Positions 16,116-55,607 of a DNA stretch of 64,000 bases are shown one piece after another. The position numbers and the translations under genes were made by a program. Source of the DNA: an uncultured Chlamydiae bacterium (GTDB lineage: Bacteria > Chlamydiota > Chlamydiia > Chlamydiales > SM23-39); NCBI GenBank assembly GCA_963828125.1, contig CAWHDP010000002.1:672001-736000 (forward strand), written 5' to 3'. Numbering within the stretch: the first letter of the stretch is position 1; each line of letters opens with the position of its first letter. The notes under the pieces were generated by a model that was not told the origin of the DNA, did no database searches, and worked only from the letters and a program-made list of their open reading frames with translations.

Positions 16116-16134
16116 TTGGGGTGGCCGCAGTATA
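16116..16134. repeat. half copy of palindromic miniature element family A
   Basis: TTGGGGTGGCCGCAGTATA, identical to the right arm of the 48-bp element. Confidence 0.85.
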
Positions 16135-16171
16135 ATAGGACTCTTCCTATTAGCGACGGGCGATCATTCCC

Positions 16172-16681
16172 TCAGTAGAGCCGATAGCGTTCAATATACT
16201 CCAACGTTTTTGCTGGCACGAGGTGAGCGCAGTACAGTTTTTTCTTTAATCTCATCCGGATCCCCGTACTCGATATCGGAATTTCGCGACGCCCAATCAA
16301 CGGCGGGGCTAACCTGACGAGCTCCTGAGTCTCTTTCCATTGATCGAGATGGGCGGCCGCCTCATCGGAGAGGAGGAGCCTGAATTCGACGCCTGGGGAT
16401 TGGAGAGCCCTGAGGGTATCGATCGTGTAAGAGGGCCCTCCTCGATCCAGCTCCAGGGTGGCAAGCTTGAATGCAGGGTGGTCAAGGGCCAATTGCAGCA
16501 TAGCGAGCCGTTGATCTGGCCTGGCGACAGGGGGCTCTGCTAGTTTAAAAGGGGAACAAAATGCAGGGCAGAACAACACCTCGTCAAGTCCATGCTCCTC
16601 CATCAATTGGATGGCAAAGGCAATGTGTCCAAAATGGATCGGATCGAACGTCCCGCCAAAAAAACCGATTCTCTTCCTCAT
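16172..16681 (-). CDS. nadD: nicotinate-nucleotide adenylyltransferase
   Basis: GGTFDPIHFGH, SYTIDTL, ISSTGIR. Confidence 0.92.
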   Translation of the reverse strand: MRKRIGFFGGTFDPIHFGHIAFAIQLMEEHGLDEVLFCPAFCSPFKLAEPPVARPDQRLAMLQLALDHPAFKLATLELDRGGPSYTIDTLRALQSPGVEFRLLLSDEAAAHLDQWKETQELVRLAPPLIGRREIPISSTGIRMRLKKKLYCAHLVPAKTLEYIERYRLY

Positions 16682-18600
16682 AAATACAACAATTCTCTAT
16701 ATTTCGGCAAAGGCCAGAGAGCGCTGTCAACGACCCCCTCAAGCCGATCGACAATCGATCTCAGTTCATCCATTTTCGGACCGATTAATTCGGCGCAAAC
16801 CTTCCCTTTCCCCTCCCAGCCCAGGTCTTCAGTTTGCGACTGCAACCTGTTCAACTCTGCAGCCGTCCGGACAGCCTCTTCAATCAGCGGCTCTTGAATG
16901 CCGCGGAGCAGCATATCTTTTTGCGCGGCGGGCAGTATTTGTGTCTGGAAGAGTTCGATCATCAAATGGAGTTCAATCTGCACCGTTTTTACATACTGCT
17001 CGACAAAAATCTCGTAGCGGCTATGTAGCTCTTCCGGACTCAAGACGTCGCTAAAAACAGGGATCGTTTTTGGATCGATAAGTGAAGAAAAAGGGTCGAA
17101 GCTCTTTTGAATCTGGCCAGAATCGTGATTCCCGCCAAAAATCATATTTTTCGCTCCCCTCAAATGCTTTCGGAGCACGGGCAGAGCCCTAAAGAAAAGG
17201 GCCTCCCCCTCTAAAGCCCCATCGCCGACAGCGCCCGCTATTTCATCGAGAATGAGCTGCAAACTATCGGCGACAATCGCATTCATGACAGTCACCGGCA
17301 AGGGAGAGTGGGCCGAGCCGCCAACGGCGCGAAACTCAAATTGACGACCGGTGAATGCAAAGCACGGCGTCCGATTACGGGACAAACCGACATCTTGGCG
17401 GGGCGTTGCGAGCGGGCCGAGATCCATAGAGCGGAGCTCTGTCCCCCCCTTTTTTTCATGGATGATCTCCTCAATGATTTTCTCCAAAGCCTCGCCGAGA
17501 TAAACTGAGCCAACAGAACCAATGCTCGCATATAAAAGCTCCGCATGCTCATGGACAGCGCGGAGGATAGCGCTCAAAAGGGTGAAAAAAACAAGGTTAT
17601 TTCCCCGCGGATCGAGGAGATTTTGACCACCGTCCGTCGAGAGCGACCAGTGATTGTGTTGACCAGATCCGCTGATCCCCATGAACGGCTTGTCATGCAA
17701 TAGACAGACCAGATCGCGCTTCCATGCAAGGCCTCGCATCAGCTCCATTAAAAGCAAATTGTGATCCACCGCGACACTCGCCCGTTCAAACAACGGAGCC
17801 ACTTCATATTGGGCAAGAGCGGCCTCCTTATGCCAGGTCTTCACCGGAATGCTGAGACGGAGTGCAGCCTCTTCAACATCACCCATGTAGGCCATGACCT
17901 GCTCTTTCACCGCCCCCGAATGACGATCTTCCAACTCCTCCCCTTTCGGCGGCCTGGCGCCAAAAACGGTCCGACCCGCTAACACCAAATCAGACCTCAA
18001 CAAAAAAAGGTTCCGATCGATCACAAAGCACCCTTGCGCAACCCCAAGAATGGGAAAAACCTTATGAGCGGCCACCCCACACATCCGGAGGAGCCGAAGG
18101 GCAGCCCTGCCCAGTTTTTCTTCGGAGCGGAGGAGCGGGATTTTGTGATCGAGCGGCGCCCCCTTCCAAGAAAAAAAAAGGGCAGGGATACATAGAGTCA
18201 TCCCACCGCCCTCTTCCCATAAGAAGGGGAGAGCCTTTGGATCCCACACCGTATAACCGCGGGCCTCATGGCCAGGCTCACAGCGGAGGAGTTCTTTGCC
18301 CCGAAATTGTTGGATGACAGCCCCATGCGAGCCAAAGCTGAGGAAAGAGTCGTGCTGCTTGGCGCCCCCGTTCGTGAGGGGCTGGAACCAGTGGCTAAAA
18401 TGAGTCGCCCCATGCTGAAGGGCCCAATTTTTAAGAGCTTCAGCAATCACATCGGCATGAACAGGATCGAACTTCGCGTCCCCCTCTAGAACATCGAGCC
18501 AATTCTGAGCCACGCCTCTCGGAAGCTCTTGAATCAAGCTGCGATGAAACACCCGCGCGCCGAAGTGAGCCACTCGAGCCGCTGCCGACCTTCCGTTCAT
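16678..18600 (-). CDS. glutamine synthetase type III homologue, degenerate active site
   Basis: HFSHWFQPLT, EARGYT.WD, GSGQHNHWS, RNRT...FEFRAVG, WPLPKYRELL. Confidence 0.85.
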   Translation of the reverse strand: MNGRSAAARVAHFGARVFHRSLIQELPRGVAQNWLDVLEGDAKFDPVHADVIAEALKNWALQHGATHFSHWFQPLTNGGAKQHDSFLSFGSHGAVIQQFRGKELLRCEPGHEARGYTVWDPKALPFLWEEGGGMTLCIPALFFSWKGAPLDHKIPLLRSEEKLGRAALRLLRMCGVAAHKVFPILGVAQGCFVIDRNLFLLRSDLVLAGRTVFGARPPKGEELEDRHSGAVKEQVMAYMGDVEEAALRLSIPVKTWHKEAALAQYEVAPLFERASVAVDHNLLLMELMRGLAWKRDLVCLLHDKPFMGISGSGQHNHWSLSTDGGQNLLDPRGNNLVFFTLLSAILRAVHEHAELLYASIGSVGSVYLGEALEKIIEEIIHEKKGGTELRSMDLGPLATPRQDVGLSRNRTPCFAFTGRQFEFRAVGGSAHSPLPVTVMNAIVADSLQLILDEIAGAVGDGALEGEALFFRALPVLRKHLRGAKNMIFGGNHDSGQIQKSFDPFSSLIDPKTIPVFSDVLSPEELHSRYEIFVEQYVKTVQIELHLMIELFQTQILPAAQKDMLLRGIQEPLIEEAVRTAAELNRLQSQTEDLGWEGKGKVCAELIGPKMDELRSIVDRLEGVVDSALWPLPKYRELLYL

Positions 18601-18659
18601 AGAAAAACTCCCATCCCCACAGTGATGGCATCTTCTCAGAACGGAATCCGATTGTCAAG

Positions 18660-54881: not shown

Positions 54882-55490
54882 ATGAATCTAGTAGACAGCA
54901 CATCAGATATAGAGAGCTTAACAAAGCTGTTCGATGAAAATCGCGACAAATATACAGAGCAGCTTAAGAATTGCCTTCAGATAGCTGAAAAAATACAAGT
55001 TGTCTCTCAACGAATTATTCTTATAGATGCAGCCACTCAAACTCTGCATCTATTTCAAGACAAAGCCCGCACTGTTTCCTATTTTATTTCAACAGCGAAC
55101 AAGGGACTGGGAGAGGTAGACGGTAGCTCTCAAACTCCAAGCGGACTCCACATCATCAAAGACAAAATCGGCGATAACGCCCCATTGACCACTGTGTTTC
55201 AATCGAGAGAACCACGTCCTGACGTGCCATTTAATCCCAATGGTGAGACCACACAAATTACCTCGCGCATTCTCCGTCTCAATGGCCTTGAGGAGGGTGT
55301 TAACAAAGGCGTAAATCAGCAAGGACAGAGTGTCGATTCATATACCCGCTATATTTACATCCACGGAACCAATCAAATCAATGACGTGGGGCAGGCTAAA
55401 TCGGCAGGCTGTATCCGGATGATGCCGAAGGACGTCGCTGACCTATATTCTAGAGTCGATGAAAAGACCCTAGTGTACATCTTCGCCTAA
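54882..55490 (+). CDS. L,D-transpeptidase (YkuD) family protein
   Basis: ISTA..G...TPSG, YIYIHGT...SAGCIRM catalytic His/Cys. Confidence 0.88.
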   Translation: MNLVDSTSDIESLTKLFDENRDKYTEQLKNCLQIAEKIQVVSQRIILIDAATQTLHLFQDKARTVSYFISTANKGLGEVDGSSQTPSGLHIIKDKIGDNAPLTTVFQSREPRPDVPFNPNGETTQITSRILRLNGLEEGVNKGVNQQGQSVDSYTRYIYIHGTNQINDVGQAKSAGCIRMMPKDVADLYSRVDEKTLVYIFA

Positions 55491-55507
55491 GTTTTTAAAA
55501 ATCAATT

Positions 55508-55527
55508 TAAATGGCCAATGTCCAGTT
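55508..55527 (+). repeat. motif D copy (TAAATGGCCAATGTCCAGTT)
   Basis: Followed by the perfect palindrome TTTAACGCATGCGTTAAA (55526..55543). Confidence 0.75.
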
Positions 55528-55559
55528 TAACGCATGCGTTAAAACAATCTGGATTAAAA

Positions 55560-55607
55560 TATACTGCGGCCACCCCAAAAGTGTGAATTTGGGGTGGCCG
55601 CAGTATA
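55560..55607. repeat. family A element, 48 bp consensus
   Basis: Identical to 50944..50991. Confidence 0.95.

What the first reader, a model, noticed from the sequence alone, without database searches (positions are those of the whole stretch)
16116..55607. 48-bp palindromic miniature element (family A) marks accessory-gene junctions
Seen: TATACTGCGGCCACCCCAAA-AGTGTGAA-TTTGGGGTGGCCGCAGTATA at 23672, 47745, 48936, 50944 and 55560, a doubled form at 22579, a half at 16116 and a decayed copy near 23573. All six full or doubled copies sit beside AT-rich accessory genes (Inc-like, SEL1, F-box-MTase, GH18, the 454-aa protein, L,D-transpeptidase) and none lies inside the conserved operons. Established: TATAC/TATAG termini with TA targets typify IS630-related miniature elements (ERIC, RUP, Correia). 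Inference: a very small, recently active MITE whose pairs may mobilise or shuffle effector genes as cassettes. Alternatively it simply accumulates in TA-rich neutral DNA or acts as a bidirectional terminator.
Basis: partly seen in the sequence, partly recalled or inferred. Interest (0 to 1): 0.8.

Follow-up and report, generated by a model that had tools for sequence, protein, structure and literature searches.

The report
Shrunken IS630-type miniature transposon in chlamydia
This 48-base hairpin repeat is the trimmed-down form of a 168-base miniature jumping element that likely borrowed an IS630 transposase; it piles up right behind gene ends, as the genome's other small repeats do, and is probably ordinary selfish DNA rather than a carrier of effector genes.

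Summary
The repeat is real: 13 arm matches in the window against 0 in shuffles, and 63 full copies plus 32 solo arms genome-wide. It is a TA-duplicating MITE; empty and filled sites occur inside another repeat. The 48-bp form is an internal deletion of a 168-bp parent, of which 78-83-bp forms also exist. Related 164-180-bp elements occur in other chlamydiae. One of their arms matches a chlamydial IS630 end at 29 of 31 bases; family A's own arm reaches 21-22 of 31. No matching intact transposase was found in this genome, only an 86-bp remnant. The strongest pattern is position: 35 of 62 copies lie within 30 bp of a gene's 3' end, against 18% expected, a bias shared by other repeat families here. 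Accessory-gene enrichment is modest and depends on the definition. Paired bracketing is not significant (2 of 133 slots). The scan noted the same filled/empty pair (e1-2378055) and a similar chlamydial MITE (e1-3988971) before. Verdict: new member of a known kind.

The parts
16115..16134 (-). Half copy (one 20-bp arm) between recO and nadD, joined to half of a family-B repeat; the junction is a synteny break against G013
16135..16164 (-). 30 bp of repeat family B (left half of its central TA site), the intragenomic target that gives empty/filled comparisons
22579..22660 (.). 82-bp form: TA + 36-bp arm + 6-bp loop + 36-bp arm + TA, with two complete 31-bp termini; likely mobile form
23573..23599 (+). 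Degraded terminus-like sequence, probably a decayed copy
   Evidence: by eye; below the 3-mismatch search
23672..23719 (-). 48-bp form (44 bp plus duplicated TA), reverse loop polarity, 29 bp behind the stop of the 391-aa ORF
47745..47792 (+). 48-bp form inserted in the TA of the pgm stop codon; adds the tail YTAATPKA
48935..48982 (+). 48-bp form between the convergent GH18 and 454-aa genes, 1 bp from the 454-aa stop
50944..50991 (+). 48-bp consensus copy, 7 bp behind the 7TM-HD stop, sharing its left TA with the end of another small repeat (family D)
55560..55607 (+). 48-bp consensus copy between the convergent L,D-transpeptidase and 155-aa genes
47867..50348 (.). GH18 gene and 454-aa gene filling the pgm to 7TM-HD slot, bounded by copies on both sides; best cassette candidate in the window
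37994..38058 (.). 65-bp sister element (family E) behind tRNA-Cys, with a TATAC-type terminus 25 of 31 identical to an IS630 end in congener G011

Best explanation
Family A is a non-coding, TA-duplicating miniature inverted-repeat element that was likely mobilised in trans by a chlamydial IS630-clade transposase, and its 48-bp copies are internal deletions of a 168-bp parent. Shown: the 31-bp terminus (TA + TAC...GTGTGAATTT) belongs to the same terminus family as that IS630 clade. Insertion duplicates TA, in a W-N-N-TA-N-N-W context. The 48-mer equals the parent deleted between two TTTGGG repeats and keeps only one complete terminus. Inferred: the forms with two complete termini (168 bp, and the 78-83-bp perfect hairpins) were the ones that jumped. 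Many then collapsed in place by hairpin-driven slippage into the stabler 48-bp scar. Copies survive mostly just behind genes and around small non-essential islets because selection removes them elsewhere. In-frame insertions at a stop or late Tyr codon are tolerated because the terminus itself reads YTAATPKV-stop. The driving IS630 appears to be lost except for an 86-bp remnant. Occasional rearrangements at copies are a by-product.
For: Empty/filled sites: family-B centre has one TA when empty and TA-element-TA when filled; flank matches 24-25 of 25 bases for the best empty copy. 60 of 63 full copies have TA at both ends. A/T at the -3/+3 positions in 91 of 114 half-sites vs 60% background, p=5e-6. 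Deletion series 168, 83/82, 80/78, 56, 53, 48 and shorter; the 48-mer breakpoint lies in a 6-bp TTTGGG repeat. In other genomes 26 of 38 complete relatives are 164-180 bp and 5 are short forms with different junctions. IS630 at L283 (G205): right end 29 of 31 to a relative's arm (shuffle maximum 22) and 21 of 31 to family A (p=0.0003); L273 gives 22 of 31. An 86-bp piece 94% identical to the L283 element lies at G000:C2:35521. The clade is related to ISAcma14, 46% aa. Position: 35 of 62 copies within 30 bp of a 3' end vs 18% (p=2e-11); 14 of 62 within 60 bp of a start vs 38% (p=0.008). The same bias holds for families B, C and E (33-39% of ends vs 11% background) and for A-type arms in other genomes (19 of 66). 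12 proteins end in YTAATPKV-like tails, and among called genes the 48/49-mers keep the stop-bearing polarity 9 to 1 (p=0.02). In-place collapse: the family-B site holds 48-mers of both polarities, a 78-mer and a longer partial form; variant C14T occurs in two 83-mers and in 48-mers on both sides; the 56-mer keeps inner parts of both termini.
Against: No intact IS630 with family-A ends was found: not in G000 (resident IS630 ends 14 and 16 of 31), not in 67 DDE_3 loci, not in 21 clade loci, and not beside the solo arms inspected. Interiors do not match the bodies of 9 IS630 elements, so the parent is not a simple IS deletion. Collapse in place would need the same deletion to recur about 48 times, whereas a relative with about nine 167-bp copies shows few short forms. 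Variants C17A, C16T and C12T lie mostly on one side, as expected if 48-mers were copied. With three short ORFs added (two of them not called as genes) the polarity bias is 10 to 3 (p=0.09). No sister strain with empty sites was available. Gene calls come from my own script and are imperfect for atypical genes.
Confidence: 0.62

Rival explanations
1. Same IS630-type MITE, but the 44-bp element itself is the mobile unit: one deletion arose once and was then amplified.
For: 48 of 63 full copies share one junction and 18 are identical. Some variants sit on one side only (C17A 3 of 3, C16T 3 of 3). Four of five 48-mers at the family-B site share polarity.
Against: Only one complete 31-bp terminus; the second lacks the inner TGTGAAT conserved in all arms and in the closest IS630 ends. 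Two 29-bp binding sites cannot fit in 44 bp (inference from mariner-type end binding, recalled). The shortest mobilised mariner MITE I read of is 78 bp (PMC5224488, passages).
Confidence: 0.22
2. Pairs of copies act as composite transposons or recombination points that bring in or shuffle accessory genes.
For: Two slots between genes adjacent in G013 are bounded on both sides: pgm to 7TM-HD in the window, and a Trp/Tyr permease at C1:47251-48775. The second GH18 paralogue also lies between a truncated end and a full copy. A 97-bp element-containing duplicate marks both ends of an apparent 400-kb inversion. Gene ends near a copy are broken adjacencies more often in short gaps (8 of 109 vs 6 of 1248). 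Four of six full copies inside family B kept only one flank. Density is 6-9 per 1000 TA at small islets vs 2.5 at core-core junctions.
Against: Double bounding is not significant (2 of 133 vs 0.47, p=0.07; 2 of 142 vs 0.7, p=0.15; 3 of 260 runs, p=0.2). Close spacing is not significant (11 vs 7.5, p=0.12). No bracketed segment recurs (0 of 32). Reciprocal breakpoints: 3 of 174, p=0.10. The same slots carry different genes in congeners, and 13 of 14 slot sequences have no TA-bounded palindrome. Six GH18 and two permease homologue loci elsewhere have no flanking palindrome. In the 22-kb slot the accessory block extends beyond both copies. Bracketed genes include transporters, not only effector-like genes.
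Confidence: 0.1
3. The hairpins are kept as bidirectional terminators or 3' RNA-stability elements.
For: Strong hairpin (-24.8 kcal/mol as DNA, z=-10). 3'-end and convergent enrichment (17 vs 9.3, p=0.008). Symmetric changes keep both arms paired. ERIC affects mRNA stability (PMC2229807, sections read).
Against: No U-tract; none of three copies in 47600-51100 was called as a terminator. The exact arm was not found in 30 relatives. The 3' bias is shared by unrelated repeat families and is read as neutral tolerance in pneumococcus (PMC3049150, passages). Symmetric changes also follow from template switching (inference).
Confidence: 0.06

Closest known systems
RUP of Streptococcus pneumoniae with IS630-Spn1
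   Same: Non-coding TA-targeting MITE whose termini resemble an IS630; enriched between convergent genes, read as tolerance of insertions (PMC2229807 sections; PMC3049150 passages).
   Different: RUP is 107 bp, AT-rich, with stops in all six frames and its IS in the same species. Family A is GC-rich, has a 168-82-48 deletion series, has a stop in only one of six frames of the 48-mer, and no intact cognate IS was found.
ERIC/IRU of enterobacteria; Correia/NEMIS of Neisseria; RPE of Rickettsia
   Same: TA-ended stem-loop MITEs under 200 bp, with length variants from internal deletion (Correia 155/107) and fusions to coding sequences (PMC2229807, parts 1-2 of 3 read).
   Different: No sequence comparison with these families was run. 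Family A gave no Rfam match. Its fusions are short C-terminal tails, not internal in-frame inserts.
MADE1/MiHsmar1 with Hsmar1 (Tc1/mariner)
   Same: 78-bp MITE of two 36-bp inverted repeats and a 6-bp spacer, reported as a preferred substrate (PMC5224488, passages). The 82-bp form without its TAs has the same geometry.
   Different: Eukaryotic, unrelated sequence; an analogy for size and geometry only.
ISAcma14-related, two-ORF IS630 clade of Chlamydiota (L001, L272, L273, L280, L283)
   Same: 31-bp termini in the frame TATAC...GAATTT with TA ends.
   Different: Autonomous 1.15-1.19-kb elements; best identity to family A's own end is 21-22 of 31.
MITE-bounded composite elements (TIME-COMP, Acinetobacter MITE-flanked integrons)
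   Same: Two miniature elements on either side of passenger genes (search listing and abstract starts only).
   Different: Those recur as units at several places; no family-A bracketed segment does.

Membership tests
IS630-type MITE (RUP/ERIC/Correia class) | Short non-coding element with terminal inverted repeats | tested here: met
   48-168 bp, 20-38-bp arms, no transposase ORF
IS630-type MITE (RUP/ERIC/Correia class) | TA target-site duplication shown by an empty site | tested here: met
   Family-B centre, empty vs filled at C1:116249 and C2:1745070; only this one site type gives a true empty site
IS630-type MITE (RUP/ERIC/Correia class) | Termini similar to those of an IS630 element | tested here: met
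   29 of 31 for a relative's arm and 21-22 of 31 for family A, both above shuffles
IS630-type MITE (RUP/ERIC/Correia class) | Cognate intact transposase in the same genome | tested here: not met
   Resident IS630 ends 14 and 16 of 31; only an 86-bp remnant of the closer type; genome 95% complete
IS630-type MITE (RUP/ERIC/Correia class) | Dispersed, near-identical multicopy family | tested here: met
   63 full copies, 2.5% divergence among 48-mers
IS630-type MITE (RUP/ERIC/Correia class) | Presence/absence between strains | tested here: inconclusive
   Runs X1-X4 hold the same strain; congeners are 68-80% identical
IS630-type MITE (RUP/ERIC/Correia class) | Mobilisation in trans by the transposase | not testable with these tools
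   Needs a transposition assay
MITE-bounded composite transposon | Passenger genes bounded by two copies more often than chance | tested here: inconclusive
   2 of 133 slots vs 0.47 expected, p=0.07
MITE-bounded composite transposon | Same unit at more than one place | tested here: not met
   0 of 32 bracketed segments recur as units in G000; 8 homologue loci elsewhere lack flanking palindromes
MITE-bounded composite transposon | Empty site with a single TA replacing the whole unit | tested here: inconclusive
   Congeners too distant; short gaps at the pgm slot in some congeners are compatible but uninformative
REP/REPIN with RAYT (Y1) transposase | Y1 transposase in the genome | tested here: not met
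   PF01797: 0 matches in G000
Intrinsic terminator | Hairpin followed by a U-tract | tested here: not met
   0 of 3 copies called; arms end in GCAGTATA

The most novel reading that the evidence does not exclude
A phylum-wide chlamydial MITE superfamily swaps interiors between IS630-matched termini, and in this genome shrank to a 44-bp unit too short to pair its own ends. Such units could react only in pairs or across sister chromatids, so instead of hopping they would invert the chromosome and carry single genes (GH18, permeases) as minimal cassettes, while stamping a shared YTAATPKV tail on a dozen proteins.
Probability: 0.12. Interest if true: 0.65.

Novelty: new member of a known kind. Interest (0 to 1): 0.3.

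Why it matters
As it stands it is a tidy, undescribed example of a known class. It shows MITEs in Chlamydiota tied to a specific IS630 clade, with a visible 168-82-48 shrinkage series and a clear selection filter at gene ends. Three library searches aimed at chlamydial MITEs or palindromic elements listed no description of this family, two broader ones listed none either, and two surveys have no 'Chlamyd' word in their main text (their supplements were not read). It would matter more if the 44-bp form proved mobile (below the 78-bp example I read of) or if paired copies moved genes, because that would give obligate intracellular chlamydiae a near-invisible route for reshuffling host-interaction genes.

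Tried and rejected
Rfam: only two tRNAs in the window. Y1/RAYT transposase: none. ISAzo13 in G000 has unrelated ends, best 17 of 31 anywhere in its two loci. Autonomous partner: not found among 51 genome-collection loci and 7 metagenome loci (all screened by tblastn or arm pattern, ORFs read in 14), 67 DDE_3 loci or 21 clade loci. Seven of the 51 loci with non-chlamydial titles were dropped as probable chance matches from the arm set and; one of them (L094) remains in the count of 38. AT-richness alone: counts were normalised by intergenic TA number and length and do not explain the 3' bias. A loose breakpoint-pair count (26 vs 25 expected) was too noisy and was redone strictly. Sequencing runs: no RNA holder listed. 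The joints have sides under 30 bases and fall on repeat copies, so they were treated as repeat artefacts, not empty sites. Short-read confirmation of the copies at 16115-23719 and of the split murF was not obtained. Family D gave too few ends to test (1 of 7). The IS1380 origin of family B comes from an earlier scan note and was not tested.
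Full report
Observation. A 20-base arm search gives 13 matches in the window and 0 in 100 shuffles. The window is G000:C2:672001-736000. Genome-wide there are 158 arm hits, of which 130 pair into 65 elements; 48 of these are 48 bp. Setting aside two long composites leaves 63 full copies and 32 solo arms. Short-read contigs of run X1, possibly the source sample, match the 47745 copy without differences. 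Titled records holding relatives of the element are mostly Rhabdochlamydiaceae, Parachlamydiales, Chlamydiae or deposited as Verrucomicrobia, and earlier scan notes call this genome chlamydial (unchecked).

Anatomy. One 168-bp copy (C2:1531805) is the parent form, and several solo arms continue into its interior. The 48-mer equals the parent deleted between two TTTGGG repeats; the 82/83-mers have junctions with 0-4 bases of microhomology. Two of these junction types recur at three or more unlinked sites, which suggests that those forms moved. The window's 82-mer is a perfect 38-bp stem with a 6-base loop. Without its TAs it has the 36+6+36 geometry reported for MADE1 (PMC5224488, passages); this is an analogy only. 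The 48-mer has one complete 31-bp terminus and a second cut to 20 bp. 18 of 48 are identical to consensus and mean divergence is 2.5%.

Insertion. The centre of another repeat, family B, gives true empty sites: one TA when empty, TA-element-TA when filled, with flank matches of 24-25 of 25 for the best empty copy. No other site type gave an empty copy. 60 of 63 copies have TA at both ends. The third base on either side of the TA is A or T in 91 of 114 half-sites after dropping six family-B sites (background 60%, p=5e-6).

Relatives and driver. The exact arm was not found in 30 relatives, but a looser search found matches in 25 of 399 other genomes of the phylum. A pattern scan returned 51 genome loci and 7 metagenome loci. 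Of 38 complete elements, 26 are 164-180 bp, 5 are short and 7 longer; their interiors form several unrelated groups and none matches the bodies of 9 IS630 elements. Among 67 DDE_3 loci one clade of two-ORF IS630 elements has 31-bp termini in the same frame. Searching with that clade gave L283, whose right end is 29 of 31 identical to an arm found in other chlamydiae (shuffle maximum 22) and 21 of 31 to family A; L273 reaches 22 of 31. The clade is 46% identical to ISAcma14. G000's own full-length IS630 matches family A at only 14 and 16 of 31, but an 86-bp piece 94% identical to L283 survives at C2:35521. No Y1 transposase was found, and the ISAzo13 ends are unrelated. The IS630 link is therefore firm for the terminus family and inferred for family A itself.

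Position. Gene calls are from my own script (2064 genes). 35 of 62 assignable copies lie within 30 bp of a 3' end (background 18%) and 18 overlap or abut a stop (6.7%); 14 lie within 60 bp of a start (38%). 13 of 63 sit on the TA of an in-frame stop (9% expected, p=0.0035). The terminus reads YTAATPKV-stop, and 12 proteins end this way, pgm among them; congener pgm proteins end at about the insertion point. Among called genes the 48/49-mers keep the stop-bearing polarity 9 to 1 (p=0.02), and the exception has gained a stop; adding three short ORFs gives 10 to 3 (p=0.09). Families B, C and E show the same 3' bias (31 of 80, 21 of 63, 13 of 34 ends; family A 41 of 126; background 836 of 7486), as do A-type arms elsewhere (19 of 66). 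This is the pattern read as tolerance of insertions for RUP, BOX and IS elements in pneumococcus (PMC3049150, passages).

Accessory genes. Against one congener (G013, 94% complete; 1081 of 2064 genes shared at 40% identity and 50% coverage), full copies fall 8 at core-core, 31 at core-accessory and 23 at accessory-accessory junctions. Density per 1000 intergenic TA is 6-9 around islets of 1-3 genes, 2.5 at core-core junctions and 1.6 inside islands of 8 or more genes. Outside large islands the excess is 45 vs 36.8 (p=0.005) after stratifying by length and orientation. Counting any G013 hit as shared removes significance (48 vs 44, p=0.15). In congeners the three window slots are empty or hold different genes in each genome, and 13 of 14 slot sequences have no TA-bounded palindrome. 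These are variable slots with or without family A.

Cassette test. None of 32 segments between neighbouring copies recurs as a unit. Double-bounded slots are 2 of 133 (0.47 expected, p=0.07) or 2 of 142 (p=0.15); accessory runs 3 of 260 (p=0.2). The two cases are the window's GH18 plus 454-aa block and a Trp/Tyr permease. GH18 was not found in 13 congeners and occurs in 6 of 102 family genomes; those six loci and two permease homologue loci have no flanking palindrome. In favour of some shuffling: gene ends near a copy are more often broken adjacencies in short gaps (8 of 109 vs 6 of 1248, not corrected for gap length within the class; not significant in longer gaps); one apparent 400-kb inversion has an element-containing duplicate at both ends; reciprocal breakpoints are 3 of 174 (p=0.10). 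Four of six full copies inside family B kept only one flank, but family B is also cut at that TA without family A.

Mechanism. Most likely a 168-bp IS630-type MITE entered with an L283-like IS630 and gave rise to 78-83-bp hairpins that spread; many copies then collapsed to 48 bp, and selection left them behind genes and around dispensable islets. TA duplication, the deletion series, the terminus match and the positional bias are shown. The identity of the transposase, collapse in place and the role of selection are inferred. The IS630-MITE identity alone I put near 0.9; the full account with the scar step at 0.62.

Literature. Read: PMC2229807 (parts 1-2 of 3), bioRxiv 10.1101/2022.06.21.494476 (part 1 of 2; an IS982-derived MITE in Cardinium, unrelated), and passages of PMC3049150, PMC5224488, PMC9997750, PMC11602168 and PMC10969869. 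Other papers were seen only as search listings. Searches listed no description of this family; supplements were not read and may list it. An earlier scan note (e1-3988971) reports a similar IS630-ended MITE in another chlamydial genome; I did not check it.

Verdict. A real, young, undescribed member of a known class, with a well-documented shrinkage series. The cassette idea is not excluded but is not supported. Interest 0.3.

Noticed in passing
window:33357-34759: murF is split into two ORFs (287 and 187 aa); a frameshift or an assembly error.
   Followed up: no
window:2184-7723: Small island: AbiEi/AbiEii toxin-antitoxin pair with ankyrin repeats fused to AbiEii, MerR-like gene and serine recombinase, ending at tRNA-Leu.
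   Followed up: no
window:34818-37871: 1017-aa protein with a ubiquitin C-terminal hydrolase domain, at the same place in five congeners at 24-33% identity; a fast-evolving effector-like gene with no family-A copy beside it.
   Followed up: partly
window:37994-38058: Family E MITE (17 ends at 23 of 31 or better in G000) with an end 25 of 31 identical to an IS630 of G011; a second IS630-type MITE family, also in collapsed forms.
   Followed up: partly
window:49237-49301 and 53442-53506: 65 bp of the dnaX coding region recur inverted inside the 454-aa gene at 89%; the piece also matches dnaX regions of congeners.
   Followed up: no
L060-L117; G013 (about nine loci, e.g. C2:263348-263523): A-type termini occur with several unrelated interiors, and family A's interior occurs with other termini: termini and interiors appear to reassort across Chlamydiota at a near-constant 164-180 bp.
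   Followed up: partly
G000:C2:898135, 1186984, 1194135: A T-to-G change at base 3 of the element restores a TAG stop exactly where the gene originally ended; at 898135 both arms carry it.
   Followed up: partly
G000:C2:101003-101099 and 508023-508119: 97-bp inverted duplicate (69 unique bases plus 28 of family A) at the two ends of an apparent 400-kb inversion separating corA-like and lpxD genes that are adjacent in G013.
   Followed up: partly
G000:C2:795756-796019 and 1782527-1782771: 264- and 245-bp structures in which two family-A ends enclose unrelated DNA.
   Followed up: partly
G000:C2:1375521-1376706: One full-length two-ORF IS630 with an A-run between its ORFs, plus three partial copies; apparently not the driver of family A.
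   Followed up: yes
window:16115-16171: nadD is separated from the gene that follows it in G013, which lies about 510 kb away near another family-A copy.
   Followed up: partly
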